A DNA stretch of 64,000 bases from Candidatus Omnitrophota bacterium. GTDB taxonomy: Bacteria; Omnitrophota; Gorgyraeia; Zapsychrales; Zapsychraceae. The DNA is taken from NCBI GenBank assembly GCA_023247445.1, contig JAHFGL010000003.1, forward strand, positions 14,128 to 78,127, read 5' to 3'. The notes below the pieces were generated by a model that saw nothing but the letters and a program-made list of their open reading frames with translations, did not search any database and was not told the DNA's origin. Made by a program: the position numbers and the translations under genes. Of the stretch, positions 1-54,699 are shown one piece after another (the stretch's first letter is position 1; the number at the start of each line of letters is the position of its first letter).

Positions 1-13
1 TGAAACTGGTGAA

Positions 14-766
14 GTGATGCTGGATCTCTCTCGGGGAAAAATGTTTCGAGACAACGAAATTGCCAAATTTAATAGTATTGGATTAGATGAGAAAAGAGTT
101 TCGGGGATTTTAGCAGGAACAGAGGCATTTGATTTGGACTCGGTTCAAGGGGATGTCTTCGGTTCTTTTGGATTTATCACTGATAATCAAGTTTTTCAGA
201 TGGAAGCGCCAAAAGAAGACGGCGATGATATTGTTGTCCGCGGTTTAGTCATGAGTTTGGAGAATGGAAGAATTAAAGTTGAGATGGTTGAGGGGCGAGG
301 GAATAGAAACAAACTATTGCAGGAAGATGATGAAGATGTTTTGGTCTATTCAGTTGTTGGCGATGGTTTTTACGCCGACGAAGCGCTTGTGACAACGAAA
401 CCAAGTGAAACAATGCAAGAATTTGAAGCTGCTTCTGCACCAGATAAGAAGACGAATTTAGGAGAGAAGAAGTACGGTGGTATCAATCTTAATCCGGCGC
501 TACTTGATCTTCAGATCAAACGCGATGGGCAGGGGATTCCACTACCGATGAATCAACAGCCGATTGAAAATATGCATATTGAAGGATTTTTACCGGTCTT
601 TATTAAACTCACGACGATTACCGATTTGCCGCTGATGCTAGGAATTAATATTCCGGCAGACAAGAAAGATGACGAGAAGACTGATATTAGTTTCAATGTA
701 AGTAGCTTGCCGGTTGAGTATCGTGAAGAGTTTTTGGCGAAAGAGTTGGAGTTGGTGGAAGTGTAG
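14..766 (+). CDS. hypothetical protein; may extend upstream of the window (no in-frame stop before nt 14)
   Basis: 750-nt ORF with no motif I recognise; GTG/ATG start at 14/17, reading frame open to the window edge. Confidence 0.35.
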   Translation: MMLDLSRGKMFRDNEIAKFNSIGLDEKRVSGILAGTEAFDLDSVQGDVFGSFGFITDNQVFQMEAPKEDGDDIVVRGLVMSLENGRIKVEMVEGRGNRNKLLQEDDEDVLVYSVVGDGFYADEALVTTKPSETMQEFEAASAPDKKTNLGEKKYGGINLNPALLDLQIKRDGQGIPLPMNQQPIENMHIEGFLPVFIKLTTITDLPLMLGINIPADKKDDEKTDISFNVSSLPVEYREEFLAKELELVEV

Positions 767-1445: not shown

Positions 1446-1586
1446 CGTCATTCTGAGCGATAGCGCACTGACTTTTCCATATTTATATTTAGATGAAGTC
1501 AGTACGTACCAACTTCATCTAAAACTATTAAGGAAAGTTGGTGCGAAGAATCTCCTGAGATCCTTCGGCTTTGCCTCAGGATGACG
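1446..1586 (+). mobile_element. MITE-like palindromic element, copy 1 (TIR + X hairpin + Y palindrome + TIR)
   Basis: cgtcattctgagcg ... cctcaggatgacg terminal inverted repeats; internal hairpin gtactgactt...aagtcagtac; palindrome ctcctgagatccttcg; near-identical copies at 25718, 39752 and 45686. Confidence 0.7.
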
Positions 1587-19990: not shown

Positions 19991-20418
19991 GGCTTTCTTC
20001 GGATTAATATCATTCCAAATTTATTTACAAACAAAGGTTCAGCATTTAATTCTTTAATTTTTTCAAGGGCCTGAAGATCGTTTTTACAGACTAAAAGAAT
20101 GAATTCATGATTTGTATTGTTGTAGTCAAGCACCGTGGGCGCCAAAATAAATTGAGCCTGAGAAAATAGTTTGTTTGATTCATCATCATTGGTGTCGCTA
20201 TAATAGCCCAAGAGGTTAATCTTTTTGGTAATGTTTTCTAATCCTAGGAATTTGCCCCCGATGACTTGATGCTTTAGATATTTTTTAAATGTTTTAATGC
20301 GGTTGACCTCGGGGATAAAGACAATAACATTAAAAATAATAATGGCCAGGAAGGAGACGATAAGAATTCTCTGGGGCAAAGATTTTGGCCAATTTATTTT
20401 AAATGAGGGCAACGTCAT
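19987..20418 (-). CDS. small single-TM protein; paralog of 23408-23869
   Basis: 143 aa; shares SQAQFILAPTVLDY / LQAQYFLAPTILEL with the 153-aa protein; 4-nt overlap with the downstream gene. Confidence 0.45.
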   Translation of the reverse strand: MTLPSFKINWPKSLPQRILIVSFLAIIIFNVIVFIPEVNRIKTFKKYLKHQVIGGKFLGLENITKKINLLGYYSDTNDDESNKLFSQAQFILAPTVLDYNNTNHEFILLVCKNDLQALEKIKELNAEPLFVNKFGMILIRRKP

Positions 20419-23411
20419 GGATTTATTTGCGGATTTGGTTTGGTGGCTAGTAGGGTGTTCGCCACATCAAAATTCTTTAAAACTTTTAGATTATATTTTG
20501 CCAAAACAAAGAAATCTTGGAGCCAGTCTTTACTTTCAGGTAAATGGCTCTTCGGGGTTGTTAGATAATAATAATCAAATATTCCATTGGGTCCTTGGCG
20601 GTTAACCTGTTTTAGCCATGTCAGATGATATTTTTCGCGGTAGAAATTAATACTTGGTTCAAAAAGCCAGTTGATCCCAAGGCTCACAGAATTTTCATTT
20701 AAGTTCTTCGTTTTGGGCGCATCTTGCATAATAAATTTTACGGCGTCTTTGGTTGACGCATCGAACTGCCATTCATAAAAGTATTTGATGTTAGCACACC
20801 CAAGAAAGTGGACGAAATAAATTGTTGTTAAAGCATAGAAAAAAGTTTGGGCGGATAATCTAAGGGCTTTCTGAGGAATCGATTGGGCTACTCCTATCAA
20901 GATGACCACAACCATCATAAAAAGAAAAACAAAATAAAGGGCTGTTCTTCCCATAACAAACTTTGTCCCTAAAATTTTCCATTGAAGGAAGATTAAGGAT
21001 GCGCAAAGAAATAGGATTGTTAGGATTCCCATTAAGAATTTATCAGTTGATGAGAACGGTTTTTTCATTATCAGTAGTTGCGCTAGATGGGCTACGCTAA
21101 GAGTTAAAATAGATATGATCAGAAATTTAATGATTAAAATAATATTTAGTCCATCGATAGCTTTTGCGTAAAGGGTGCTATCAATTAAACTTGTTACAGT
21201 GTCCGTCCAGAATCCTTTGTCCCCGCCATAATAAAGTTCATGATAAGTTAATAATTTTTGTAGCGGGACAATGTAAAGAGCCCCCACCACAATTGAACTT
21301 AAGATAATAGAAGGAAAGAGGTTTTTTAGTAGACGTTTAAATATTTCTTTTTCGCGAAATGATTGCAAAAGTTCAAAGCCAAATAGAAACATGATGATAG
21401 CTAGATGAATATGGAGAAAGGCGAGGTTAGATAAAGTAGCCAGAACTAATAACCAAGAGCAAAGGATTAAATTTTTTCTGTAAAGAAGAATGTCATTTGT
21501 CATCAGGATTTTAAAAAAATAATATAAACCCAAAGCCAGAAATCCTAGGCCCAACGCATACCCTCGGGCGCAGGAAAATAAATCTAGCATATAAGGATTG
21601 CACGTCAGCAAAAGAAGTCCTGCGATAAGACTTGGTCCACGTAGAACGATCGAACAAATTTTATAAGCAGCAAACAGAAAAAGCGCATGACCGATCAAAG
21701 CCGGAATTCTTATCGCAAATTCTGACAATCCAAAACAATTGACTGAAATTTTAATAAGTAAACTATTGAGCAGATGGTTGTTTGATGGGTGCGGCTGACT
21801 AAAGGTTAATATTTGAAGAAATGAGGCCGAGGCATGACGCAGATATGTTAACGCTTCATCATGGGTGATCGATATGTTGTAAGCACGGATGAGCGTATAA
21901 ATAAATAATCCCGCCATGATGAGAAAGCAGATCCAGTGAGTAATTCTATTTCTGTCATCCTGAGCGTAGCGAAGGATCTCAGGATTCTTACGTGGCTTGA
22001 GATTTTTTGCCTCGCTCTTGGCAGGCTCAGAATGTTGGGGTGATAACTTTGTTGTTTGGTCTGACCAATAACAAAAAAATGATAGAAAGAGAATGGAGGG
22101 CAAAAGCTGCAGGTAAAGGCGCTCCAGTGACATTGACAGCCACCAATGGATATCGATATTGGTGTTGACCAGATAGATAAAGATTAGGATCGCGATGTAA
22201 GTAATGATGGAGAAGCTAATAATTTTATTTTCTTTATAAAATAATTTTGGAAATTTTAGGATGCCCAACAAAATAACCAATAACCAAATAAAGCTCCATC
22301 GTTTATCAATGATCTCGTTGAATACTGTTTTTTGAATGAGCAGAAATTTTTGGGCCTGTGTAATGTTTAGCTGAACTGCTTTTAAGCTGGGAAGAATATC
22401 TTCGTTGGGCGGCGCCAGGAATACTTTGAAGATGATCGTTGGCAATGCGGCAACGATTAATCCTATCAACATAAAGCGAATCAGGCTCCAACTTGTTTTC
22501 TTGCTTATCGTTTTATCAAATATTAGATAAAGTGTCGTGACGCTTGCCAAGATCCCCGTCATTACCATGCCTTCATTCTTGATGAAGGACAAAAATCCCA
22601 GGAATAGTCCATAAAGAATAGCCACGCGGTGATCTTTTAAATGCATCATGATGATCATTGTGACAAATGCGGCCAAAAGATAATACGCTAAGACAATATC
22701 GGCATATTGGGCCGTCGACCAAAAAATGAAATAAGGATGAGATAAAAGTAATAAGGAGGCAAAAATTCCAGCGGGCTTTAAATTAAGATGCTTTAAGGCC
22801 GCATAGACTAAAAGACAGGCGCTGACCGTAAATAAAAAAGACGTTATAAGCGGAATTGGAAAAAGATTGTTGGCGAAAAAGGAATAAATCCAAACATTAA
22901 CAAATGGTAAGAAAAGTGGGTAGTCGGGATGAGTATGCCAGTTTAGGCCTGATAAAATATCTTGCCAGGGCGTTTGGCTAAAGAGGAGAAACTTGGTTTT
23001 TAAATTCCACATCGCCCAGGCGTCCCATTCGCCGTAGGGATGTTTTTGGATAAGGAATAAGATTATTCCAGACAAGATAAGCCAGCAACAAGCAATTAGA
23101 ATATCTAATGGTTTAAGATTTTTTATCGATTTTTTAAATTGGTCAACGAGTGATGAGGAGCGCAACGACGAGAAATTAAGATAGATTAATAGAATTAAGA
23201 AAAGAAGATTGGCCGTAACAATGGCCAACGCATTAAATTGACGCAGGAATAAGAAAGAAAAGAATGTAATAAATGAGGAGAATCCTAATCCAAGGCCAAG
23301 GGCGAGTAAGAGATGAAGGCTTAATGAAATTGGTTTTGTATTTTTTAATAAAAAAGAAATGGCGAGGAATCCAAGGCAAAAAGAAATAAGGTAGGGGAAA
23401 AAATGGATCAT
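20415..23411 (-). CDS. large polytopic membrane protein: N-terminal module like 18485-19990, an RPE/MITE-encoded linker, and a C-terminal GT-C (PMT/ArnT-like) glycosyltransferase module
   Basis: 998 aa; C-half has ISITHDEALTYLRHA and NNHLLNSLL first-loop motifs typical of GT39/GT83; linker ...HSEPAKSEAKNLKPRKNPEILRYAQDD is encoded by the repeat at 21954-22035. Confidence 0.55.
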   Translation of the reverse strand: MIHFFPYLISFCLGFLAISFLLKNTKPISLSLHLLLALGLGLGFSSFITFFSFLFLRQFNALAIVTANLLFLILLIYLNFSSLRSSSLVDQFKKSIKNLKPLDILIACCWLILSGIILFLIQKHPYGEWDAWAMWNLKTKFLLFSQTPWQDILSGLNWHTHPDYPLFLPFVNVWIYSFFANNLFPIPLITSFLFTVSACLLVYAALKHLNLKPAGIFASLLLLSHPYFIFWSTAQYADIVLAYYLLAAFVTMIIMMHLKDHRVAILYGLFLGFLSFIKNEGMVMTGILASVTTLYLIFDKTISKKTSWSLIRFMLIGLIVAALPTIIFKVFLAPPNEDILPSLKAVQLNITQAQKFLLIQKTVFNEIIDKRWSFIWLLVILLGILKFPKLFYKENKIISFSIITYIAILIFIYLVNTNIDIHWWLSMSLERLYLQLLPSILFLSFFCYWSDQTTKLSPQHSEPAKSEAKNLKPRKNPEILRYAQDDRNRITHWICFLIMAGLFIYTLIRAYNISITHDEALTYLRHASASFLQILTFSQPHPSNNHLLNSLLIKISVNCFGLSEFAIRIPALIGHALFLFAAYKICSIVLRGPSLIAGLLLLTCNPYMLDLFSCARGYALGLGFLALGLYYFFKILMTNDILLYRKNLILCSWLLVLATLSNLAFLHIHLAIIMFLFGFELLQSFREKEIFKRLLKNLFPSIILSSIVVGALYIVPLQKLLTYHELYYGGDKGFWTDTVTSLIDSTLYAKAIDGLNIILIIKFLIISILTLSVAHLAQLLIMKKPFSSTDKFLMGILTILFLCASLIFLQWKILGTKFVMGRTALYFVFLFMMVVVILIGVAQSIPQKALRLSAQTFFYALTTIYFVHFLGCANIKYFYEWQFDASTKDAVKFIMQDAPKTKNLNENSVSLGINWLFEPSINFYREKYHLTWLKQVNRQGPNGIFDYYYLTTPKSHLPESKDWLQDFFVLAKYNLKVLKNFDVANTLLATKPNPQINP
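21954..22035 (-). mobile_element. MITE-like element, copy 2 (short, degenerate), translated in-frame within the 998-aa ORF
   Basis: gtcatcctgagcgtagcgaaggatctcagg...gcaggctcagaatg; minus-strand translation RYAQDD from the TIR. Confidence 0.55.
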
Positions 23412-38972: not shown

Positions 38973-39762
38973 AATTACCAGCCTCACTAATCCAAAAGTT
39001 AAAGAACTCGTTAAACTGCGCGAAGCGGCTCAGCGAAAGAAGTCGGGGGTCATTGTCGTTGAAGGATATCGTGAAATTGAGCGTGCTATTGAAGCGAAGG
39101 TGAACTTTAAGGAATTTTATATCTGTAAATATTTTGTTAAAACGTTAGCGCAAAAAGAAACGCTTAAGAAAATCATGGCGCTTAATGTCCCGATTTATGA
39201 GACAAGCAGCGAAGTGTATGAAAAAATTTCATATGGTGACCGCAATGAAGGATTGATGGCGATTGCTCAGCCAAAGTATTCATCATTCTTCGATTTGCCA
39301 TCGAAAGACGATTTGTTTATTCTGGTTATTGAGCAGGTTGAGAAGCCTGGAAATTTGGGCGCGATCCTGCGTACTGCTGATGGCGTGGGCGTTGATGGCA
39401 TCATCGTCTGTGATGCCAAAACGGATATTTATAATCCAAATGTGATTCGTTCAAGTTTGGGAACAATTTTTTCAACTAAAGTGGTTGTTAGTTCTGTTGC
39501 CCCAACTTTTGATTTCTTAAAGTCGAAGGGAGTCAAGATTTGTGCGACGAGTCCTGATGCCGATTTTATTTATTCCAAGGCTGATTTAAAAGCGCCGGTT
39601 GCCATTGTCGTTGGCAGTGAACAGGAGGGCTTAAGTCGATTTTGGTTAAGTAAAGCGGATTTAAAGGTAAGAATTCCAATGCGTGGGAAAGCTGATTCGC
39701 TTAATGTCTCGACATCAACGGCAATTTTGCTTTATGAAGCGCTGAGACAATCGTCATCCTGA
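38962..39762 (+). CDS. TrmH/SpoU family RNA methyltransferase; its stop codon lies in the MITE TIR
   Basis: LGAILRTADGVGVDGII and VVGSEQEGLS SPOUT motifs; last codons caa tcg tca tcc tga are the MITE TIR cgtcatcctga. Confidence 0.7.
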   Translation: MLDKITSLTNPKVKELVKLREAAQRKKSGVIVVEGYREIERAIEAKVNFKEFYICKYFVKTLAQKETLKKIMALNVPIYETSSEVYEKISYGDRNEGLMAIAQPKYSSFFDLPSKDDLFILVIEQVEKPGNLGAILRTADGVGVDGIIVCDAKTDIYNPNVIRSSLGTIFSTKVVVSSVAPTFDFLKSKGVKICATSPDADFIYSKADLKAPVAIVVGSEQEGLSRFWLSKADLKVRIPMRGKADSLNVSTSTAILLYEALRQSSS

Positions 39763-39900
39763 AGGAGCAAAGCGTACTGACTTTTCCATAATTTATATTT
39801 AGATGAAGTCAGTACGTACCAACTTCCTCTAAAATATTAAAGGACAGTTGGTGCGACTGAAGGATCTCTTAAGAGATCCTTCGCTTACGCTCAGGATGAC
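39752..39900 (+). mobile_element. MITE-like element, copy 4 (full length, same orientation as copy 1)
   Basis: cgtcatcctgaaggagcaaagcgtactgacttttccataatttatatttagatgaagtcagtacgtacc...gaaggatctcttaagagatccttcgcttacgctcaggatgacg. Confidence 0.75.
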
Positions 39901-42612: not shown

Positions 42613-42678
42613 GTCATCCTGAGGAACGCAGTGACGAAGGATCTCTTAAGAGATCCTTCGCTGGCGCTCAGGATTACG
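42613..42678 (+). mobile_element. MITE-like element, copy 5 (short form: TIR + Y palindrome + TIR)
   Basis: gtcatcctgaggaacgcagtgacgaaggatctcttaagagatccttcgctggcgctcaggattacg. Confidence 0.65.
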
Positions 42679-44666: not shown

Positions 44667-44690
44667 TGTGAGTTAGTTATAACTATGTTG

Positions 44691-44888
44691 TCTGTGGTTT
44701 AGGCATATTATTACAGAGCGAGTTCCGCAGCTGATCGACTACAAAAATTTGGTTTAGCCATATGATCAGTCGCTCAAACATGCTCCCTTTGGTCGCAAAC
44801 TCGCTTTGTGATCATATGGCTAAACCATTGCGAAAAGTCGATCTCGCGAGGACTGTTTGAGCGAATAATAATATGCCTAAACCACAGG
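44691..44888. repeat. unique ~200 bp nested palindromic element (MITE-like or structured RNA)
   Basis: outer IR ctgtggtttaggcatattattac / gaataataatatgcctaaaccacag; inner IR tggtttagccatatgatca / tgatcatatggctaaacca; further dyads cgctcaaaca / tgtttgagcg and gatcgac / gtcgatc. Confidence 0.6.
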
Positions 44889-44997
44889 TCATTCTCCGTT
44901 TTTGCCCCTAAGTCACAACAGTAATTTTTTGGCATTTTCCCCAATCACATGGCATACTTTTGCCTATAAATCCTGTCTTTAGTAGTTAATTAATATT

Positions 44998-47900
44998 ATG
45001 TATATTTACAAGAAAAACCAAAACTCATGTGGTAGCCGCCGGCTTATTTCAACCGTCTTACTGATAGCCTTTGGATTGACCTCATTTTTGCCTCCCAATC
45101 TTAGCTGGGCGCAGGTTGTGCCCTTAACAGGACTCAATCTTCCTATTCCGGGAACGGTCATCAATTTAAGTCCCGCCTTTATTCCCGCGCATGTCACCGG
45201 CATTGCCATTCATCCCGACGATCCATTTAAATTCGATTTTATTATTGATACCGGTGATGATCATTTAGAAGGTGAGGCGTTTAAACAGGAATCGATGAAG
45301 CTGATTAAATATTTTATGGCCTCCCTAACGGTGCCGGAGAATCAGATGTGGGTTAATCTTTCGCCATATGAAAAGAATCGTATCATTGCGGATGGACTGG
45401 GGCAGACGGAGATGGGCCGCGACATGCTTGGCCAAGATTATATTTTGAAACAATTAACGGCATCTTTAATGTCACCTGAGAATGAATGGGGACAAAAGTT
45501 TTGGGATCGTGTTCATAAAGAAGTTAAAGAAAAATATGGCAACATTGATATTCCAACGGATACGTTTAACAAAATTTGGATTCTGCCGGATAAGGCGTCG
45601 GTTTATGTTCATGACAATCGCGCGTTTGTTGTTGAGAATCATTTAAAGGTGATGTTGGAGGAAGATTACGTGGCGCTTTCTAATAGTCATCCTGAAGGAG
45701 CGAATGCGACTGAAGGATCTCCGAAGAGATCCTTCGCATCAACTTTCCTTAATGGTTTTGAGAAGAAGTTGGTACGTACTGACTTCCTCCAAATTGAATT
45801 AAGGAAAAGTCAGTACGCTGCGCTCAGGATGACGGAGCCAATCAAAGAAATTTTAAAAGAAATTCTCCTTCCCGAAATCGAGAAGGAAGTTAACAACGGC
45901 AAGAATTTTGCCCAGCTGCGACAGATTTTTTATTCAATGATTTTAGCCACGTGGTATAAACAGAATTTGAAAAAGAGCTTGTTCACCAAAAATTACGCCA
46001 ATCAAAACAAGATTGAAGGAATCGACCTTCAAGATAAAAAAATCAGTGAGAAGATTTACAACCAATATTTAGAAGCCTTCCAAAAAGGTGTCTCCAATTT
46101 AATTAAAGAAGAGTATGATCCGCAAACTCAGGAAGTTATCCCGCGCAAATATTTCTCGGGAGGAGTTCAGGGAGTCGAAGACGCGGCGATCTTGACAAGT
46201 CTGCCTTCGAGTTGGATGGAAGCTCAAATAAATCGCGATCATGCGATGGTCACCGCCGGCATCGATCCTCTCGGCCCTCAAGCTTCCGATGAGGCGATGG
46301 TGACTTATGCCGAAGGAACAGATCAACAATACCTCAAGAGGCTGGATAAGATGTTTCGGGCAATTGCTGGTTCCGCCGATGTGGATGGTTCGGCTTATAA
46401 AGATTTTCAAAGAGGAGTTTCTCAATTAATAACAGATGGCGTGATCACGGGTTTAGTTGCAAGAAGGCAAGTTTGGGATTTTATGAAATCTGTGGCCCAA
46501 GGTGTTGCGTCAGGCGATCGGACAGAATTGCAACAACTGAGATTCCTCTTGAATTCTCCCGAGGAGATTACGTTATCTCATTTTATGAGAATAAGGATTC
46601 GAAAAGAAAAAACAAGTAAACGAATGATTAGAGTTGTTCAAAGAGTCCCTGGAATGCTTGCTCATTCCCAAGCGTTGTTGCAGGACATTGTGGGTAAAAT
46701 AAAACGTAATGAGCCGGTTAAAATATGTTTTGTCTGTAATATGAATGTTCACCGCAGTGCCGTCGCCCATGTCTTAGTAATGGATCAAGCTCAAAAATTA
46801 GGAAGGACCAATGTTGAGATTGTCTCTGGCGGGACATTTGATTCAAATGAACATTTAAATTCTAAATTAAGATCTGGATTCAAGAAAATTTTAGAGGCCA
46901 GGGGTGTTGACAGCGACATCATTAATCGATTTCGTACCAGAGATGTAACTAAAGAAGATTTAGAAGATTCTCAGTTAATTGTGATTGCAGAACCAATGAA
47001 CCTAGAGAGGTTGTCAGAGTTTGAAAATGAGGTTCCAGGGTTGTATGAGAAGATGATATTTTTTACATCGATTAATCCCGTCGTAGATGCCCAGCATCCG
47101 GATCATGTGATGCCAGATCCTTATGATTCAAGTAAGATATCAGCAGAAGGGTTGGTTGATTTAATAGAACAAGAAATAATTCCGCGGTTGTTTCCAACCG
47201 ACCCCGCCCTCCAGCCTTTGGCTGGAGAGGCCTCGGCATCCCGTAAGCGGGATGACCGGGCGATGTTGACTAAAACGGAACAAACTCCTCAAGCTCTGGT
47301 TGAAGATTTAAAACGCGCTGCTGCCGAGGATCCTGGCAATATTGTGGATGTTTTGTATGACCGTGGTTTTAGAAAACCGGATGAACCATTCAACGTGTAT
47401 CTTATGATAAAGAATCATAAAGGTCCGATCTTGGATATTAGAACTGGTGAGGAGTTGCAAAATTGGCCAGCCGAGCAGTTAGTCGGCCGTCAGTGGAGAA
47501 GGGCCGACGTTTATATTAGAAAAGATGACCCAAGAGGTTTGGGAGTTTTGGTGATCGATTCTGATAATATTTTGACCGCGCGCGAAAGTCATCAATTTAG
47601 AGAAAGAAATTGGCGGGATTTGGCTCAAAAAAGAGGACTGATTGTTTATACCGGAGTCAATGCCATCAATCGTGAGTTGATAACCGCGCATCGAATTTTA
47701 AAAGAAGACGGCACGATTGTTGAAAAGGAATATGGTGATTCACCGCCATTCGACTTAAAGGTCACAAAAGAGTCAATCCTGATACGTATTGGCGATGGTG
47801 TTTTTTTTATCGAGTTGGATGAGTCGATGCTGACATACTCTGAAGACCAATGGGATAAAGTCAATCAAACGTACGAGAGCCTTCGCAAATTAGCCCAGAG

Positions 47901-49578
47901 TATTAAAGATGATCTTGATGCAAAGTTAGGGCCTGGATTTGTTGAGGAGTTAACGGGGTTAGTTGATCGATTACCCGAAAATGAAACTCAGGCCAGAGAA
48001 AGGTTAGGCGAAGATGACGCAATGAAATTGTTGGAGGACACCAACCGATTAGCCAATCTTGCTTTTGTGACAATCGATCAAATTTTAACATCATCTCATG
48101 AAAAGATTACATCATTAGGTCTTGATAATATTCTTCAGTCTGATTTAGAAAGTCCAAGGTATCCGATAAAAGAAGGATTTCGCAGCTACGACATAATTCG
48201 TGATTTTACTGAAAAATTGGGCAAGGTTAAAGGGGCTATGGATGGAATGAGTTCTCGGAATCTTAGTCGAGATACAGTTTATGGAGAATTTAATAGTTGT
48301 AAGCTTTTCTCGTCAATGGCTTTAAAAAGAATTGTAGCATTTGTCAACTTATTGGATCATGTTGTTGATCTACAAAGCGAGTCCTTTGAGAAATTTAAAG
48401 AGGAGATAAAATCAAGTACCGTATCTTTTAGAGAATCAAAAAGTTTACCCGAGTATATTTATCGATATTTTTTAATCCCGTATCAAGAAGCTTTGGCAGA
48501 GCGAGAAGCCATTGCTGAACCTATTCCCGATGAGGCGCTGTTGGCTCACCCGGAAGATTTGGTTGGGGGAGAAATAAATTTAAGATATTTGCGACGGATT
48601 CAAAAAATTGTTAATTCCAGCAAGGCTGATACAAAAAAGATCGCCATGTATGTGGGGGCTGGGGCGGATATCAGTGCTGCGCTTCTAGCGATTGATGCGA
48701 CGGACTATATTTTTATCGATCAAATTCCATTTGATACGGATAAACGAAAGGTCAGCGCCAAGACATTGGCTCGCGACATGGAAATTTATTTCCATGACAA
48801 GATGGGCAAAGGATATGGCAATTATTTGGCGATGAAGTCGGTTGGTCGGATTCGGCCATTTTTTATAAAAGAATTAGAATTGTTAGGAATTGATCCTAAG
48901 GATGTTTCAATTAAAAAAGATAAAAATAATCCAAATGTTTTTAGAATTAGTTTTGAGTATAAAGGCCAGAGGAGAACGGTTACCTATGTTGGTAATGCGG
49001 ATGCGACAAGGCCAGCCAAATTCGCCTCGCTTATTAAACGTTTGGGCCGAGCTGATTTTCTAATGATTAGAGCCGGCAATTACAGTGAGCGCAATCCAAA
49101 ACCATTATTAACGCGGACTTTTGTTATGAAACATTTAAAACCATCAGGACATCTTATTGTAGATTCCCTCGATGGGTTGACGGCCAAGGATGGACTACGT
49201 GATTTAGTTGAGCAGAAGCATTTGCGTGATGCCGTTTTAACTAGACTGGAACGCGATGGGGCGGGGTTAGGGTATGGTGATCGTTACGCCCCGCAATCAT
49301 ATATTTATATAAACAATCTCGATGAGGCGCTAGTGACGGATAAAGCAGTGACTAGTGAAGTTCCTGGTGGGATTGATTTTAATCCTGCGAATATGAATTT
49401 CAATTCAAACGGCGATAAGATTCAAATCAACTTACCGATGGCAGATCCCGCGATGCTGGGAGTAGAATCACCCGTCCGTGGTTATCAACCGGTCATTATT
49501 GAAATCACTCCGATAACAAATTTTCCGCTATTGCTCGGACTTAAAGATGAGCACGTGACGCAGATTTCTTATAACTAA
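44998..49578 (+). CDS. giant secreted multidomain protein (1526 aa) with an embedded LMW protein-tyrosine-phosphatase-like domain and an in-frame MITE
   Basis: signal peptide ...FLPPNLSWA-QV; CX5R(S) P-loop VKICFVCNMNVHRSAVAH plus PDPYDS Asp loop at about aa 570-730; possible Rossmann-like MYVGAGADISAALLAIDATDYIFIDQ near the C-terminus. Confidence 0.65.
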   Translation: MYIYKKNQNSCGSRRLISTVLLIAFGLTSFLPPNLSWAQVVPLTGLNLPIPGTVINLSPAFIPAHVTGIAIHPDDPFKFDFIIDTGDDHLEGEAFKQESMKLIKYFMASLTVPENQMWVNLSPYEKNRIIADGLGQTEMGRDMLGQDYILKQLTASLMSPENEWGQKFWDRVHKEVKEKYGNIDIPTDTFNKIWILPDKASVYVHDNRAFVVENHLKVMLEEDYVALSNSHPEGANATEGSPKRSFASTFLNGFEKKLVRTDFLQIELRKSQYAALRMTEPIKEILKEILLPEIEKEVNNGKNFAQLRQIFYSMILATWYKQNLKKSLFTKNYANQNKIEGIDLQDKKISEKIYNQYLEAFQKGVSNLIKEEYDPQTQEVIPRKYFSGGVQGVEDAAILTSLPSSWMEAQINRDHAMVTAGIDPLGPQASDEAMVTYAEGTDQQYLKRLDKMFRAIAGSADVDGSAYKDFQRGVSQLITDGVITGLVARRQVWDFMKSVAQGVASGDRTELQQLRFLLNSPEEITLSHFMRIRIRKEKTSKRMIRVVQRVPGMLAHSQALLQDIVGKIKRNEPVKICFVCNMNVHRSAVAHVLVMDQAQKLGRTNVEIVSGGTFDSNEHLNSKLRSGFKKILEARGVDSDIINRFRTRDVTKEDLEDSQLIVIAEPMNLERLSEFENEVPGLYEKMIFFTSINPVVDAQHPDHVMPDPYDSSKISAEGLVDLIEQEIIPRLFPTDPALQPLAGEASASRKRDDRAMLTKTEQTPQALVEDLKRAAAEDPGNIVDVLYDRGFRKPDEPFNVYLMIKNHKGPILDIRTGEELQNWPAEQLVGRQWRRADVYIRKDDPRGLGVLVIDSDNILTARESHQFRERNWRDLAQKRGLIVYTGVNAINRELITAHRILKEDGTIVEKEYGDSPPFDLKVTKESILIRIGDGVFFIELDESMLTYSEDQWDKVNQTYESLRKLAQSIKDDLDAKLGPGFVEELTGLVDRLPENETQARERLGEDDAMKLLEDTNRLANLAFVTIDQILTSSHEKITSLGLDNILQSDLESPRYPIKEGFRSYDIIRDFTEKLGKVKGAMDGMSSRNLSRDTVYGEFNSCKLFSSMALKRIVAFVNLLDHVVDLQSESFEKFKEEIKSSTVSFRESKSLPEYIYRYFLIPYQEALAEREAIAEPIPDEALLAHPEDLVGGEINLRYLRRIQKIVNSSKADTKKIAMYVGAGADISAALLAIDATDYIFIDQIPFDTDKRKVSAKTLARDMEIYFHDKMGKGYGNYLAMKSVGRIRPFFIKELELLGIDPKDVSIKKDKNNPNVFRISFEYKGQRRTVTYVGNADATRPAKFASLIKRLGRADFLMIRAGNYSERNPKPLLTRTFVMKHLKPSGHLIVDSLDGLTAKDGLRDLVEQKHLRDAVLTRLERDGAGLGYGDRYAPQSYIYINNLDEALVTDKAVTSEVPGGIDFNPANMNFNSNGDKIQINLPMADPAMLGVESPVRGYQPVIIEITPITNFPLLLGLKDEHVTQISYN
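45686..45834 (-). mobile_element. MITE-like element, copy 6, full length and translated in-frame inside the giant ORF
   Basis: gtcatcctgaaggagcgaatgcgactgaaggatctccgaagagatccttcgc...ggtacgtactgacttcctccaaattgaattaaggaaaagtcagtacgctgcgctcaggatgacg encodes SHPEGANATEGSPKRSFASTFLNGFEKKLVRTDFLQIELRKSQYAALRMTE. Confidence 0.7.
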
Positions 49579-49601: not shown

Positions 49602-49681
49602 GTCATCCTGAGGAACGAAGTGACGAAGGATCTCCGATTATTTTAAGTACTTTGAGATTCTTCGCTTCGCTCAGAATGACG
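49602..49681 (+). mobile_element. MITE-like element, copy 7 (short form)
   Basis: gtcatcctgaggaacgaagtgacgaaggatctccgatta...gagattcttcgcttcgctcagaatgacg. Confidence 0.65.
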
Positions 49682-49694
49682 TAAACGTTTTAAA

Positions 49695-50213
49695 CTAGAT
49701 CATTAAAAGTGCAGCGTTGGCGCGAAGATAGTTACGCACATCTTCCGTAAAAGGCAAAAAGACCTTATAAAACAATTTGCCTTTTTGTTGCGCAACCTTT
49801 TTAATCTTTGTTTGGAATTGGATTTTGGATTCTTTAGGCGAGTGGCCTTCGTTTTGAAAGCTGATGGTAACCTCTGCGATTGTTCCTTCAGCAATAAAGG
49901 AAGGAATGTCGCAGGAAAGGCCGATGAGATTAATATCATGAGTGCGGCTGATAATAAAATGATCGTTGACCTTTAAATGGATCGGCCATTCATAGTGAAA
50001 ACGGCGATAATGACGTTTCTCAGAGAAAACATTTTGATTGTTTTGCACTCCTAAACGATAGCGTGTCCAATCTTGACCATATTTTTTGATCCAGTCTGTT
50101 GCCGCTGTGGCAAAACCAACTTCGCGACCTAATTTTTCACTTTCAAGCCATTTATGTTTACGAATTTCAGCTAACGCTAATTCATCCTGAAGAAATGAGT
50201 AAGTGGTATTCAT
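49695..50213 (-). CDS. PilZ-like domain protein with an unrecognised N-terminal domain
   Basis: RHYRRF (RxxxR) then DINLIGLSCDIP...GTIAEVTISF resembles a degenerate PilZ c-di-GMP-binding fold. Confidence 0.4.
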   Translation of the reverse strand: MNTTYSFLQDELALAEIRKHKWLESEKLGREVGFATAATDWIKKYGQDWTRYRLGVQNNQNVFSEKRHYRRFHYEWPIHLKVNDHFIISRTHDINLIGLSCDIPSFIAEGTIAEVTISFQNEGHSPKESKIQFQTKIKKVAQQKGKLFYKVFLPFTEDVRNYLRANAALLMI

Positions 50214-53226: not shown

Positions 53227-54699
53227 TTAATTCTTGTTTTTAGGAAGATTATCAACGAGATTAGCTTTAAGTCTTAGGCCCGATAAGAAGTTGCTAAAAA
53301 TTTCATTTCTTTTTTCCATAAAAAGATTTTGAGCAAACTTTTCTTTTTCTTTGGCAAAAACTTCTTTATCTACAGGGATATAAGAATTTAAATGAAGGAT
53401 ACAATAACCATTTTCGGTTTCAACCACATCACTGATTGTGTTATTCTCCGTGAGTGAAAAGGCTGCTTCTTGAAATTCCTTGGCGATACCAACCTTAGGT
53501 AAATAATCCCCGCGATTAAAGCCCGGTGTTTGATAAATTTCTAATCCCAATTGTTTAGCTGCGGCTTGAAAATCTTCGATTTTCGATTTATTTAATTCTT
53601 CTTTTAGACTTTTTAAATATTCTTGAGCCTTGAGCTTCGCAATATCTTTGGCCTTTATTTTTAAAAAGGCTTCTTTAACTTTATCTTTGACTTGAGCATA
53701 ATCTGGGATTTGGCTATCTTTCTTTTCTTTGACCTTGACGATGAAAATACCTTTAGATGTTTCAAAAGGTTCATTGATTCTATTTGTTTCTAGCTGGGAT
53801 ACATATGTCTGTAGTTCAAAAGGCCATCCTAGCGAAAGATTGGGCTGGTCAACGCTAAAAAATCCACTGGTTTGTAAGTTTAAATTATCCTTTTTAGCAA
53901 TTTCTTGTATGTCAGGATTAATAAGGAGTGCTTGATAGACCGATGTCGCTTTTTGCTTCAGCTCAGCCTTCTCAGTTTCTTCAATATTGTCCTTATAATC
54001 AAAACGGATAAAATCGACATTAATGCTAGGGGGAATGCGGAATTCATCTTTATGCTCGGCATAATATTGTTGAGCTTGAGATTCATCGTAGTTAACGTCA
54101 TTTTTGAATGAATCCGTTGAAATTAAACAATAGCTAACTTGTACTTTTTCATTTTGTTTCTTATAAGCGGCAAATACTTCATCTTCGGTTAGTGTCGTCG
54201 CTGAAGCCTCTTGGTCTAGCAATTTACCAAACATCAAGGTATCGCGGACGCTTTCTTCAAAATCTCTGGCTTCCGTTCGAAAACTATAGCGCAGGATATC
54301 GTTGTAAAGCAATGTGTCGAATTGCCCATCTCGTTGAAAGAAAGAGTATTGTTTAATTGTTTCAATAACCTCTTTATCGCTAACTTTAATGTGTCTTCGA
54401 TTGGCTTCCTCTAAAAGAATGAGTCGGTCCCATGTTTCTGCTTCCAAATTTAAGAATGGGCGAGCTTCTCTAAATTTGTCACCATAACGAATCATGGCCT
54501 GAAGTTGGGTGTGTTGATACATGCGTTCAAACTTATCAAGGGAAATTTTGTGGTTAAAGATTTTGCCAGCATAGGTTGGTTGGCCGTTGCCTTGTATCAT
54601 GTAGGCTGTTCCAAAAAATCCAAAAGAGATAATGATAATAATGGCTACAAACCACAAGATTTTCTTAGCAACACCTTTTTTGCGTAACGTTTTTAACAT
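53227..54699 (-). CDS. membrane-anchored periplasmic chaperone / peptidyl-prolyl isomerase, PpiD/SurA family
   Basis: N-terminal TM (ILWFVAIIIIISFGFF), SurA-N-like region, C-terminal parvulin-like segment (EPFETSKGIFIVKVKEKK). Confidence 0.6.
   Translation of the reverse strand: MLKTLRKKGVAKKILWFVAIIIIISFGFFGTAYMIQGNGQPTYAGKIFNHKISLDKFERMYQHTQLQAMIRYGDKFREARPFLNLEAETWDRLILLEEANRRHIKVSDKEVIETIKQYSFFQRDGQFDTLLYNDILRYSFRTEARDFEESVRDTLMFGKLLDQEASATTLTEDEVFAAYKKQNEKVQVSYCLISTDSFKNDVNYDESQAQQYYAEHKDEFRIPPSINVDFIRFDYKDNIEETEKAELKQKATSVYQALLINPDIQEIAKKDNLNLQTSGFFSVDQPNLSLGWPFELQTYVSQLETNRINEPFETSKGIFIVKVKEKKDSQIPDYAQVKDKVKEAFLKIKAKDIAKLKAQEYLKSLKEELNKSKIEDFQAAAKQLGLEIYQTPGFNRGDYLPKVGIAKEFQEAAFSLTENNTISDVVETENGYCILHLNSYIPVDKEVFAKEKEKFAQNLFMEKRNEIFSNFLSGLRLKANLVDNLPKNKN

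What the first reader, a model, noticed from the sequence alone, without database searches (positions are those of the whole stretch)
44998..49578. Giant secreted protein with an internal low-molecular-weight tyrosine-phosphatase-like (CX5R) domain, bracketed by repeats
The protein is 1526 aa with a cleavable signal peptide. Around nt 46710-47190 it has ...VKICFVCNMNVHRSAVAH..., a C-x5-R-S P-loop, followed about 120 residues later by ...MPDPYDS, a DPY-type general-acid loop. That is the LMW-PTP / ArsC-like arrangement, embedded in an otherwise unrecognisable polypeptide. A possible Rossmann-like segment (MYVGAGAD...FIDQ) lies near the C-terminus. The gene is preceded by the unique nested palindrome, contains a MITE, and is followed by another MITE. 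Secreted tyrosine phosphatases are classic effector or exopolysaccharide-regulation activities, and giant genes are typical of some host-associated or predatory candidate-phylum bacteria.
Basis: partly seen in the sequence, partly recalled or inferred. Interest (0 to 1): 0.6.

Follow-up and report, generated by a model that had tools for sequence, protein, structure and literature searches.

The report
Exported modular enzyme carrier with phosphatase
This 1,526-residue protein does contain a real low-molecular-weight tyrosine-phosphatase domain, but that domain is only one swappable cargo unit in a very large, apparently undescribed family from the uncultured bacterial phylum Omnitrophota, whose members sandwich strings of ordinary cytoplasm-type enzymes between a signal peptide plus a conserved head and a conserved tail.

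Summary
The ORF (44998-49578, +, 1526 aa), the quoted motifs, the in-gene and downstream MITEs and the upstream nested palindrome are all present. Pfam LMWPc matches aa 576-726 above its gathering score. C580-x5-R586-S587 and D707-P-Y align with solved LMW-PTPs, so the phosphatase reading holds.

The rest is not "unrecognisable". Aa 15-400 (about 50% identity) and aa 1450-1520 (about 40%) are shared with more than 4,000 protein clusters, essentially all from Omnitrophota. Their middles are unrelated to this one and carry intact PGI, PGK, GAPDH, enolase, PEPCK, transketolase, kinases, DnaJ, HEAT repeats and methyltransferases.

Cargo modules are separated by a short punctuation motif. It is D-x-A-M-(L/V/T) in this protein (7 copies against 0.47 expected) and (A/S)SSP(V/I/L/M) in other lineages, and it flanks the Pfam domains in three relatives checked.

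This member carries four cargo modules: a helical region plus LMW-PTP, an orphan, a near-orphan, and a recurrent Rossmann-like domain with no known relative.

The head has a moderate-confidence model with no match in the two fold libraries that could be searched. The tail is predicted without regular secondary structure.

The most likely reading is a Sec-exported cargo carrier that is displayed or delivered outside the cytoplasm. The destination and any cleavage at the motifs are inferred, not shown. The flanking repeats are incidental.

The parts
44998..45114 (+). Signal peptide, aa 1-39 (predicted cleavage S-W-A|Q)
   Evidence: Basic N-region, a hydrophobic core at aa 16-31 and small residues at -3 and -1. 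The same pattern is conserved in 76 relatives.
45115..46236 (+). N-cap, aa 40-413: the conserved head module of the Omnitrophota cap-cargo family
   Evidence: About 50% identical to all 120 listed homologs, with E down to 1e-142. AF2 gives pTM 0.68. There is no Pfam, NCBIfam or PDB sequence hit and no Foldseek hit in PDB or BFVD.
45686..45833 (+). MITE copy inserted in frame in a variable loop of the N-cap (peptide ~aa 230-279)
   Evidence: The terminal inverted repeats match five other window copies. The insertion falls where relatives have a shorter variable loop. The AF2 segment 231-264 has pLDDT below 50.
46237..46305 (+). Two punctuation motifs after the N-cap (DHAMVT aa 414-419; DEAMVT aa 431-436)
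   Evidence: (repeat D1). The first motif lies in a predicted strand (415-421) in a stretch with block-mean pLDDT 80-83.
46306..47253 (+). Cargo module A, aa 437-752: a helical region followed by the LMW-PTP domain
   Evidence: Bounded by motifs at aa 431 and 753. No close homolog was found.
46723..47175 (+). LMWPc (low-molecular-weight phosphotyrosine phosphatase) domain, aa 576-726; P-loop C580-R586-S587 at nt 46735-46758, D707-P-Y at nt 47116-47124
   Evidence: Pfam PF01451 scores 34.8 bits against a gathering score of 23.2. PDB hits include 4etm, 4lrq and 3rof, with the P-loop and PDPY aligned.
47254..47271 (+). Punctuation motif DRAMLT (aa 753-758)
47272..47817 (+). Cargo module B, aa 759-940: an orphan
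   Evidence: No hit to this stretch in the exhaustive HMMER scan of 1.84 billion representatives, in PDB or in Pfam.
47818..47835 (+). Punctuation motif DESMLT (aa 941-946)
47836..48528 (+). Cargo module C, aa 947-1177: a near-orphan
   Evidence: The only relative is P0135 (E 1.6e-8), itself a cap-cargo family member.
48529..48546 (+). Punctuation motif DEALLA (aa 1178-1183)
48547..49320 (+). Cargo module D, aa 1184-1441: a recurrent Rossmann-like domain of unknown function (AxYxGxGADIS..DA..F(I/V)D ... LKPxG.LI.D ... LE..GA.(F/L)GY)
   Evidence: 46 representative clusters carry it, some up to three times in one protein. The AF2 core has pLDDT above 90. There is no significant Pfam, PDB sequence or fold match.
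49321..49338 (+). Punctuation motif DEALVT (aa 1442-1447), 10 residues before the GGID that starts the C-cap core
49360..49575 (+). C-cap, aa 1455-1526: PGGIDFNP...PVIIEITPITNFPLLLGL followed by a short tail
   Evidence: Shared with about 110 of the 120 homologs at about 40% identity and found by motif in 114. AF2 gives pLDDT 50-60 with almost no regular secondary structure.
44692..44887 (.). Upstream nested palindrome (incidental, probably a foldback mobile element)
49602..49680 (.). Downstream MITE copy (incidental)
2..766 (+). C-terminal end of a second family member, cut by the window start (C-cap at 476-697, with the same DEALVT punctuation)

Best explanation
The gene encodes one member of a very large paralogous family that, as far as sampled, is specific to Omnitrophota. 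I call it the 'cap-cargo' family.

Shown here:
- Every member has a Sec-type cleavable signal peptide and a conserved N-terminal module of about 375 aa (the N-cap).
- A variable string of cargo modules follows.
- A conserved C-terminal module of about 55-70 aa (the C-cap) ends the protein: GGID(F/L)NP ... PVIINITPxTNxPLLLG plus an acidic tail.
- A short punctuation motif marks module boundaries. It is D-x-A-M-(L/V/T) in this lineage and (A/S)SSP(V/I/L/M) in others.
- This member carries four cargo modules. Module A ends in an LMW-PTP-fold domain with the nucleophile Cys580, Asn583, Arg586, Ser587 and the general acid Asp707 in place. B is an orphan, C a near-orphan, and D a recurrent Rossmann-like domain.

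Inferred mechanism:
- The protein is exported unfolded through Sec and its signal peptide is removed.
- The two caps are the common handling modules. They retain, display or translocate the cargo beyond the cytoplasmic membrane of a diderm cell.
- The punctuation motifs are exposed inter-module linkers recognised by a shared factor, most plausibly a processing protease.
- The phosphatase module then removes phosphate from phosphotyrosine on proteins at the cell surface or in a partner (host or prey) cell. Phospho-arginine cannot be excluded as substrate.

The phosphatase is therefore one interchangeable payload, not the identity of the protein.
For: Family and architecture:
- 4,077 clusters score E <= 1e-3, and the listed ones match only aa ~15-400 and ~1450-1520.
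- Named sources and 37 reference-genome loci are almost all Omnitrophota, with several loci per genome and tandem arrays.
- Relatives carry intact unrelated enzymes between the caps, for example PGI at 630 bits and PEPCK at 354 bits.

Punctuation:
- The motif occurs 7 times in this protein against 0.47 expected (maximum 4 in 2,000 shuffles).
- SSP[VIM] and D.AM are the most over-represented k-mers (15-38 fold) in the non-homologous cargo of 120 relatives.
- A strict motif lies within 80 aa after the N-cap in 53/113 relatives (chance about 1%) and within 30 aa before the C-cap in 56/115 (chance about 0.5%).
- The motifs flank Pfam domains and never lie inside them in P0032, P0038 and P0101.
- The two motif types are nearly mutually exclusive per protein (45 against 24, with 7 mixed). 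They are consistent within tandem loci and within genomes and between the two members in this window.

Export:
- Signal-peptide features are conserved across the family.
- There is no other hydrophobic segment of transmembrane strength.
- The charge bias places the bulk of the protein outside the cytoplasm.
- Mla and SurA genes in the window indicate a diderm envelope.

Phosphatase.

Gene integrity: the ORF is intact over 1526 codons despite a MITE, which sits in frame in a loop that is variable in relatives and has low confidence in the model.
Against: - No experiment or structure shows what the caps do. The N-cap model is only moderately confident (pTM 0.68) and has no detectable fold relative. 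The C-cap is predicted without regular structure.
- Cleavage at the motifs is pure inference. They could be hinges, helix caps or recombination joints.
- About a third of relatives (44 of 120) have few or no strict motifs.
- Cargo such as PGK, GAPDH and kinases needs ATP or NAD, which the periplasm lacks. An extracytoplasmic site of action is therefore paradoxical unless a partner cell is the target.
- The P-loop has Met where the LMW-PTP and ArsC P-loops I know (CxGNxCRS; from memory, not a family-wide tally) have Gly, and His where many have a second Cys. Activity could be altered or lost.
- No conserved protease or secretion-system gene was seen next to family members in the loci examined.
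Confidence: 0.6

Rival explanations
1. A dedicated secreted tyrosine-phosphatase effector or exopolysaccharide regulator. The phosphatase is the point of the protein and the rest is species-specific padding.
For: The LMWPc domain is real and its catalytic residues are present. A signal peptide is present.
Against: The head and tail are shared with more than 4,000 proteins whose cargo is unrelated. The phosphatase occupies 151 of 1526 residues and is one of four delimited modules. No BY-kinase, Wzx/Wzy or polysaccharide-export genes lie in the 64-kb window. No other family member with an LMWPc cargo was found.
Confidence: 0.1
2. An inner-membrane-tethered cytoplasmic scaffold. The N-terminal hydrophobic segment is an uncleaved anchor and the enzymes face the cytoplasm, forming membrane-bound enzyme assemblies.
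For: Cargo in relatives consists of cytoplasm-type, cofactor-dependent enzymes. The 2026 preprint reads nearly half of the long Omnitrophota proteins as membrane-anchored with cytoplasmic domains.
Against: There is a single N-terminal hydrophobic segment. Its upstream flank carries a net charge of +3.4 and its downstream flank is uncharged, which predicts N-in, C-out. A conserved A-x-A|Q-type signal-peptidase site follows it in 67/74 relatives. There are no further transmembrane segments.
Confidence: 0.15
3. An uncleaved surface or 'coat' multi-enzyme protein. The caps anchor both ends in the envelope, and the punctuation motifs are only flexible hinges, or conserved joints that allow cargo cassettes to be exchanged by recombination.
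For: [quoted passage not shown] Motif copies are also similar at the DNA level (63-77% over 30 nt). Within genomes the motif type is uniform, as concerted evolution would also give. Cargo composition is highly shuffled.
Against: Nothing here argues directly against it. It differs from the best explanation only in denying processing. Strong conservation of an exact 4-5-residue motif across unrelated modules is more than a hinge needs.
Confidence: 0.25
4. The CX5R domain is an ArsC-type arsenate reductase of the LMWPc superfamily rather than a protein phosphatase.
For: ArsC from Gram-positive bacteria belongs to the same Pfam family. This rests on established knowledge and was not tested here.
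Against: Thioredoxin-coupled ArsC needs two further cysteines (Cys82 and Cys89 in the S. aureus pI258 enzyme). The whole protein has only four cysteines (11, 577, 580, 1101), and none lies downstream within the domain. All of the best PDB hits are protein phosphatases.
Confidence: 0.03
5. A decaying gene or an assembly chimera. The MITE insertion, or mis-joining of paralogs in a metagenome assembly, created a meaningless long ORF.
For: A MITE lies inside the coding sequence. Paralogs share head sequences about 50% identical that could mislead assemblers.
Against: The reading frame is open for 1526 codons. The MITE is in frame and sits in a loop that is variable in relatives. The architecture is complete, with head, regular punctuation and tail. 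The database lists the identical protein under both NCBI and ENA, on contigs of 149 kb and 33 kb. I did not establish that these are independent assemblies.
Confidence: 0.03

Closest known systems
Low-molecular-weight protein tyrosine phosphatases (Pfam PF01451; e.g. B. subtilis YfkJ 4etm, V. cholerae 4lrq, S. aureus PtpA 3rof)
   Same: Module A aa 576-726 matches the family model above threshold. The match runs end to end, with the P-loop C-x5-R-S, the conserved Asn and the PDPY general-acid loop aligned.
   Different: Known members are free-standing proteins of about 150-180 aa, whereas this one is an internal module of a 1526-aa exported protein. The P-loop reads C-N-M-N-V-H-R-S, with Met in place of the usual Gly and no second P-loop Cys. 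Identity to solved structures is low (best E 5e-5).
Multi-enzyme 'giant' and long proteins of Omnitrophota (West-Roberts et al. 2023, bioRxiv 10.1101/2023.11.21.568195; bioRxiv 10.64898/2026.06.07.730766)
   Same: Same phylum. The same paradox applies: metabolic and signalling enzyme domains sit behind signal peptides. The cargo repertoire overlaps (starch synthase, ROK, response regulator, radical SAM, methyltransferase, HATPase, PPDK). The neighbours echo those reported near giant genes, namely a small PilZ-like ORF and a Rotamase_2 PPIase. The punctuation motif also occurs in the tail of a 13,897-aa protein and in some large proteins without a detectable N-cap.
   Different: Those papers deal with proteins of 10,000 aa or more and mostly with transmembrane-rich architectures. 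In the passages I searched by keyword they do not describe a conserved head, a conserved GGIDxNP tail or punctuation motifs. The family here is 0.9-3.7 kaa, and this member has a signal peptide as its only hydrophobic segment.
MARTX toxins (analogy of architecture only; from established knowledge)
   Same: Conserved N- and C-terminal regions flank a variable, shuffled string of effector modules. In MARTX these are cut apart at inter-module sites after delivery.
   Different: There is no sequence or domain relationship. No RTX repeats, no C80 cysteine-protease domain and no type I secretion signal were found. This family uses a Sec signal peptide instead, and its cargo is housekeeping-type enzymes rather than toxins.
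Polymorphic toxin systems (CdiA, Rhs, MafB; analogy only, from established knowledge)
   Same: A conserved trafficking part is joined to interchangeable payloads. Short conserved motifs demarcate the payloads (VENN, PxxxxDPxGL), as D-x-A-M and SSPV do here.
   Different: In those systems the payload is a single C-terminal toxin with a cognate immunity gene. Here there are several internal modules, a conserved tail, no immunity-like neighbour and no toxin domains.

Membership tests
LMW-PTP (Pfam LMWPc, PF01451) | Match to the family profile above the curated gathering score | tested here: met
   34.8 bits against 23.2, E 2.3e-8, profile positions 1-139 of 144.
LMW-PTP (Pfam LMWPc, PF01451) | N-terminal P-loop C-x5-R-(S/T) with a conserved Asn at +3 | tested here: met
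   C580-N-M-N583-V-H-R586-S587 aligns with CLGNICRS of 4etm, 4lrq and 3rof.
LMW-PTP (Pfam LMWPc, PF01451) | Gly at P-loop position +2 (CxGNxxRS) | tested here: not met
   Met582 replaces Gly. The consequence for activity is unknown.
LMW-PTP (Pfam LMWPc, PF01451) | DP(Y) general-acid loop about 115-130 residues after the nucleophile | tested here: met
   D707-P-Y lies 127 residues after C580 and aligns with PDPYY of 4lrq.
LMW-PTP (Pfam LMWPc, PF01451) | Four-stranded alpha/beta fold, and phosphatase activity | not tested
Activity needs an enzyme assay.
ArsC (thioredoxin-coupled, LMWPc type) | Cysteine triad (Cys10, Cys82, Cys89 in pI258 numbering) | tested here: not met
   Module A contains only C577 and C580.
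Omnitrophota cap-cargo family (defined in this report) | N-cap homologous over about 375 aa | tested here: met
   40-57% identity to 119 listed relatives, E 1e-123 to 1e-142.
Omnitrophota cap-cargo family (defined in this report) | C-cap GGID(F/L)NP ... PVIINITP.TN.PLLLG at the C-terminus | tested here: met
   aa 1455-1526 aligns with about 110 of the 120 relatives, and the motif is found in 114.
Omnitrophota cap-cargo family (defined in this report) | Sec-type signal peptide with A-x-A|Q-like site | tested here: met
   Rule-based only. No SignalP or DeepTMHMM was available.
Omnitrophota cap-cargo family (defined in this report) | Punctuation motif after the N-cap, between modules and about 11 aa before the C-cap | tested here: met
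   Motifs at aa 414, 431, 753, 941, 1178 and 1442.
MARTX toxin | RTX/MARTX glycine-rich repeats, a C80 cysteine-protease domain and type I secretion | tested here: not met
   No such Pfam or NCBIfam hit at E <= 1. A Sec signal peptide is present instead.
Type V autotransporter / T9SS cargo | C-terminal beta-barrel translocator (at least ~250 aa, or a trimeric ~70-aa anchor ending in an aromatic residue) or a beta-sandwich T9SS CTD | tested here: not met
   No Pfam hit. The C-cap is 72 aa and ends in an acidic or polar tail. AF2 predicts no beta structure there, at low confidence.

The most novel reading that the evidence does not exclude
The head, tail and punctuation motifs define a phylum-wide export-and-processing system. 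Omnitrophota send strings of intact cytoplasm-type enzymes (glycolytic enzymes, kinases, chaperones, phosphatases) across their own envelope as polyproteins. A shared protease, possibly the head module itself, cuts them apart at D-x-A-M or SSPV sites. The enzymes are then deployed inside or on a host or prey cell to rewire its metabolism and signalling. That would be a new class of effector-delivery architecture, and it would also explain how the phylum's giant proteins are matured.
Probability: 0.2. Interest if true: 0.9.

Novelty: new variant of a known kind. Interest (0 to 1): 0.65.

Why it matters
Omnitrophota are ubiquitous, uncultured, ultra-small bacteria suspected of predatory or parasitic lifestyles. 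Their large multi-enzyme proteins are a recognised puzzle.

This locus shows that proteins of 0.9-3.7 kaa form one coherent family of more than 4,000 clusters. The family has a fixed plan: signal peptide, head, punctuated cargo, tail.

That plan turns a vague phenomenon into testable questions:
- Are the proteins cut at D-x-A-M or SSPV?
- Where do the head and tail send them?
- Why are intact PGI, PGK, GAPDH or, here, an LMW-PTP placed behind a signal peptide?

The punctuation motif also gives a simple rule for parsing domain boundaries in otherwise unannotatable Omnitrophota proteins, including some of the giants. Modules B to D of this protein and the head module are candidates for new folds or functions.

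Tried and rejected
- Searching the cargo alone (aa 420-1450) with the word-indexed search returned only the protein itself.
- The exhaustive HMMER scan of aa 753-1441 found relatives only for module D, plus one for module C.
- Neither Pfam scans of module-D relatives nor a PDB search with the module-D profile gave a significant hit. The only hints were faint methyltransferase matches at E 0.05-0.09.
- Foldseek of the module D model against PDB gave glycine N-methyltransferase, OvoA and PHBH as best hits, at E 0.014-0.05 and TM below 0.25. None is significant, so I do not call it a methyltransferase.
- Foldseek of the N-cap model against PDB and BFVD gave nothing at E <= 0.001.
- A profile of the N-cap alignment against PDB sequences picked up only coiled-coil noise from the cargo columns.
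- PADLOC and PHROGs gave nothing meaningful. NCBIfam gave only a spurious sigma-factor hit.
- A C-cap profile search was meant to find tail-bearing proteins that lack the head. It returned mostly short fragments from contig ends and was uninformative.
- Neighbourhoods of three family members show no conserved protease or secretion partner.
- Rfam found only a tRNA in the window, and nothing at the palindrome or the MITEs.
- Promoter and terminator scans were at background level.
- Literature searches for the GGIDxNP string, for 'polyprotein' together with Omnitrophota, and keyword searches inside three Omnitrophota papers found no description of this family. The library is incomplete, so prior description cannot be excluded.
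- Considered and rejected: ArsC (no cysteine triad), autotransporter or T9SS tail (too short, wrong terminus, no beta prediction), and signal peptidase I as the enzyme acting on the punctuation motifs (Asp at -3 in D-x-A|M and Pro at +1 in SS|P are disfavoured; from established knowledge).
Full report
**1. The observation**

The ORF finder lists 44998..49578 (+) as a 1526-aa ORF.

The only C-x5-R-[ST] match in the protein starts at C580, in VKICFVCNMNVHRSAVAH. A D-P-Y lies at 707, which is 127 residues downstream. The whole protein has just four cysteines (11, 577, 580, 1101).

The N-terminus looks like a classical Sec signal:
- It has a basic N-region (K5, K6, R14, R15).
- The single most hydrophobic 19-mer in the protein lies at aa 17-35.
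- An S-W-A|Q site follows.

The upstream nested palindrome is real. It has perfect 22-nt outer arms (44692-44713 and 44866-44887) and perfect 19-nt inner arms. It folds as a 200-nt hairpin at -90.7 kcal/mol, z = -10.2.

The MITE is also real. Copies ending in GTCATCCTGAGG...CTCAGGATGAC lie at 45686-45833 (inside the gene) and 49602-49680 (32 nt after the stop). Further copies lie at 1447-1585, ~21954, 39753-39900 and 42613-42677. The terminal 12-mer matches 13 times against 2.0 expected.

**2. The phosphatase domain**

Pfam LMWPc (PF01451) matches aa 576-726 at 34.8 bits, above the gathering score of 23.2. The match covers profile positions 1-139 of 144.

A sequence search of PDB with aa 560-745 returns 20 hits at E <= 1, and 19 of them are LMW-PTPs. 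The best is B. subtilis YfkJ (4etm), at E 5e-5. The alignments place vCnmNvhRS on vClGNiCRS and mPDPYds on iPDPYyg.

The nucleophile Cys, the P-loop Asn, Arg and Ser, and the general-acid Asp are therefore all present.

There are two departures from the usual P-loop. Met582 stands where the LMW-PTP and ArsC P-loops I know have Gly. His585 stands where many have a second Cys.

A thioredoxin-coupled ArsC reading is excluded, because the domain has no downstream cysteine pair.

I did not predict the structure of this module. The profile evidence was already above threshold, and the two available jobs were needed elsewhere.

**3. What the rest of the protein is**

The homology search changed the picture. 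It returned 4,077 clusters with E <= 1e-3 out of the 8,000 candidates scored. The best 119 scored E 1e-123 to 1e-142 yet covered only 23-37% of the query.

Mapping those hits back onto the query shows that all of them cover aa ~26-375 at about 50% identity. About 110 also cover aa ~1451-1520 at about 40% identity. Essentially none covers aa 530-1175.

Every source name given is Candidatus Omnitrophica/Omnitrophota or an unclassified metagenome.

A scan of one genome per GTDB species found 37 loci. Most are in Omnitrophota MAGs. Several more sit in bins labelled 'uncultured Planctomycetales', and two sit on short contigs of bins labelled Ignavibacteriales and Spirochaetia, which may be mis-binned. 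There are up to three loci per genome, even though the search patterns came from this one sequence.

Members often sit in tandem (L001, L003, L012, L017). In one locus, three members follow a 13,897-aa gene.

A second member ends at the start of this window. Its tail is at 476-697.

The middles of the relatives are unrelated to this protein's middle. Between them they carry a remarkable list of Pfam domains: PGI, PGK, UDPGP, FBP aldolase plus GAPDH, enolase, PEPCK, PPDK, transketolase, isocitrate lyase plus malate synthase, phosphoglycerate mutase, ROK and PfkB kinases, starch synthase, protein kinase, HATPase, response regulator, DnaJ, HEAT, HD, radical SAM, SAM methyltransferases and LysM.

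Where I re-scanned them, the domains are full length and high scoring, for example PGI at 630 bits and PEPCK at 354 bits.

**4. Punctuation**

The repeat finder reported one 30-nt direct repeat family with five in-frame copies inside the gene (D1). They encode DEAMVT, DRAMLT, DESMLT, DEALLA and DEALVT.

The pattern D-x-[AS]-[ML]-[LVMI] occurs 7 times in the protein, against 0.47 expected from shuffling. The maximum in 2,000 shuffles was 4.

I removed heads and tails from the 120 family proteins and counted k-mers in the cargo. The most over-represented 4-mers are SSPM/SSPV/SSPI/SSSP/ASSP (24-38 fold) and DAAM/DQAM/DPAM/DSAM/DRAM/DKAM/DEAM (11-30 fold). The GGID-LNP words also rank high, because they begin the tail.

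Each protein uses essentially one motif type: 45 use D-x-A-M only, 24 use SSPx only, and 7 use both.

The motifs occupy fixed places:
- A strict motif lies within 80 aa after the head in 53/113 proteins (median 33 aa), where chance gives about 1%.
- One lies within 30 aa before the tail in 56/115 proteins (median 11 aa), where chance gives about 0.5%.
- Motifs also lie between cargo units.

In relatives with recognisable cargo, the motifs flank the Pfam domains and never fall inside them:
- PGI (840-1330) lies between SSSPV at 781 and SSPV at 1369.
- DAAML at 426 lies 12 residues before the GAPDH domain, which starts at 438.
- PGK (1180-1689) is followed by DGAML at 1719.

The motif type is the same in tandem neighbours, in different loci of the same genome, and in the two members in this window. 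Both of those read DEALVT before the tail.

The motif also recurs in the tail of the 13,897-aa protein (EDQAML three times). Some large proteins without a detectable head also carry it, up to 18 SSPx in 4,282 aa. It is absent from many others.

**5. Anatomy of this member**

| Part | Residues | Note |
|---|---|---|
| Signal peptide | 1-39 | |
| N-cap | 40-~413 | |
| Punctuation | 414 and 431 | |
| Module A | 437-752 | helical region, then LMW-PTP at 576-726 |
| Punctuation | 753 | |
| Module B | 759-940 | |
| Punctuation | 941 | |
| Module C | 947-1177 | |
| Punctuation | 1178 | |
| Module D | 1184-1441 | |
| Punctuation | 1442 | |
| C-cap | 1455-1526 | |

The exhaustive HMMER scan of 1.84 billion representatives with aa 753-1441 gave different results for each module:
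- Module B had no hit.
- Module C had one relative (P0135, E 1.6e-8), itself a family member.
- Module D had 46 clusters, covering proteins from 125 to 6,443 aa. One family member carries it three times (P0121).

Module D has a conserved AxYxG(S/A)GADIS..L..TDA...F(I/V)D signature, later LKPxG.LI.D, and LE..GA.(F/L)GY.

Its AF2 model is very confident over aa 1178-1377 (pLDDT about 90 or more). Neither the profile searches nor Foldseek against PDB (best E 0.014, TM about 0.12-0.22) give a significant relative. I leave it as a recurrent domain of unknown function.

**6. The caps**

The N-cap alignment has about 65 invariant positions, including many acidic residues: D80, E125, D142, D147, E221, E295, E297 and E371. 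It has no invariant Cys or His.

AF2 with 37 sequences gives pTM 0.68 and a mixed alpha/beta domain. The lowest-confidence stretch, 231-264, is the MITE-encoded insertion. The first punctuation motif (414-419) is modelled as a strand (415-421) in a stretch with block-mean pLDDT 80-83.

Foldseek finds nothing significant in PDB or BFVD. No Pfam, NCBIfam or PDB sequence hit exists either.

The C-cap is GGID(F/L)NP, then about 25 variable residues, then G..PVIINITP.TN.PLLLG and an acidic tail. There are two subtypes, and both occur in this window. It is predicted with pLDDT 50-60 and almost no secondary structure. It may fold only against a partner.

**7. The MITE inside the gene**

The 148-nt copy lies in a loop between the conserved HLKVMLEEDY and EILLPEIEKEVN blocks. 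Relatives have a shorter, variable segment there. Two relatives (P0041, P0065) also have extra insertions at that spot.

The frame is preserved, and the gene stays open to a complete tail. This argues that the gene is under selection and that the loop tolerates insertions. It is not a sign of decay.

**8. Context**

The window is ordinary chromosome. The genes identified are:
- pseudouridine synthase, an ABC-F ATPase, HhH-GPD glycosylase, RmuC, CutA and peroxiredoxin;
- a SurA-like PPIase, HisG, GlmU-like transferase and PRPP synthetase;
- ribosomal protein L25, Pth, Mla transport genes, GreA, deformylase, a PAS histidine kinase and a GH5 cellulase.

No BY-kinase, polysaccharide-export or secretion-system genes are present.

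The ORF immediately downstream on the opposite strand is weakly PilZ-like, at 20.9 bits and below threshold. A Rotamase_2 PPIase lies 3.6 kb away. West-Roberts et al. report both kinds of neighbour near giant Omnitrophota genes.

Two other family loci showed no shared partner gene.

**9. How it most likely works**

Shown:
- the family architecture;
- the punctuation motifs and where they sit;
- the signal-peptide features;
- the conserved catalytic residues of the phosphatase.

Inferred:
- The protein is exported through Sec. The positive-inside bias, the conserved A-x-A|Q site and the lack of other transmembrane segments support this.
- The caps are shared handling modules for retention, display or onward translocation in a diderm envelope.
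- The motifs are exposed linkers read by a factor that co-evolves with the genome. A protease is the simplest candidate, as West-Roberts et al. already suspected for the giant proteins.
- The cargo acts outside the producer's cytoplasm.

Because much of the family's cargo needs ATP, NAD or SAM, a partner cell's cytoplasm is an attractive destination. That fits the proposed predatory or parasitic lifestyle. It is the least supported step.

The architecture resembles MARTX and polymorphic toxins in logic. It fails every membership test for them.

**10. Novelty and verdict**

In the passages I searched by keyword, the papers on Omnitrophota giant and long proteins describe multi-enzyme, signal-peptide or transmembrane-bearing proteins with overlapping cargo. 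They do not describe this head, this tail or the punctuation. The tail motif string does not occur in the searchable literature.

I therefore rate the finding as a new variant of a known kind. It is a coherent mid-sized family within the known Omnitrophota multi-enzyme-protein phenomenon, and this ORF is its (so far unique) LMW-PTP-carrying member.

The flanking repeats are incidental.

Interest is 0.65. The individual phosphatase is modest. The family plan it reveals is surprising, and it makes the processing and destination of these proteins directly testable.

Noticed in passing
window 2-766 (+): C-terminal end of a second cap-cargo family member, cut by the window start. It has the other C-cap subtype (GGINLNPALLDLQIKRDGQGIPLP...) but the same DEALVT punctuation just upstream.
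   Followed up: partly
window 1447-1585, ~21954-22010, 39753-39900, 42613-42677, 45686-45833, 49602-49680: A MITE family with GTCATCCTGAGG/CTCAGGATGAC ends and an inner GAAGGATCTC...GAGATCCTTC palindrome. The longer copies also carry a second palindromic insert (ACTTTTCC...GTACGTAC...GGAAAGT), so the element is composite. One copy is translated in frame inside the N-cap loop.
   Followed up: partly
window 44689-44891: A 200-nt perfect nested hairpin. Its inner and outer arms are variants of the same 19-mer (TGGTTTAGCCATATGATCA and TGGTTTAGGCATATTATTA), as if a foldback element had inserted into a copy of itself. It is unique in the window and has no Rfam match.
   Followed up: partly
window 49695-50213 (-) and 53227-54699 (-): A small ORF with a sub-threshold PilZ match (20.9 bits against a gathering score of 22.5) lies directly downstream. 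A SurA-like PPIase with Rotamase_2 domains lies 3.6 kb away. West-Roberts et al. 2023 report the same kinds of neighbours next to giant Omnitrophota genes.
   Followed up: no
L038 1-1757 (tail of a 13,897-aa gene) and L038 2352-13150: In another Omnitrophota MAG, a giant gene is followed directly by three cap-cargo family members in tandem. The giant's tail contains three repeats of a module, each preceded by EDQAML, the same punctuation motif type.
   Followed up: partly
relatives P0041 and P0065, N-cap loop equivalent to window aa ~228-280: Two relatives carry their own extra insertions in the same N-cap loop that holds the MITE here. P0041's insertion reads like a translated palindromic repeat (VIASPEGARQS...). 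This suggests that the loop is a recurrent, tolerated landing site.
   Followed up: no
window 4713-6950, 7873-9039, 18485-19990 (-), 20415-23411 (-): Four sizeable ORFs (745, 388, 501 and 998 aa) have no Pfam match at E <= 1e-5.
   Followed up: no
relatives listed (P0164, P0191, P0210, P0222, P0240, P0264): Short ORFs of 79-172 aa consist of little more than a C-cap but lie on long contigs (37-125 kb). They may be stand-alone tail proteins or split or frameshifted family genes.
   Followed up: no
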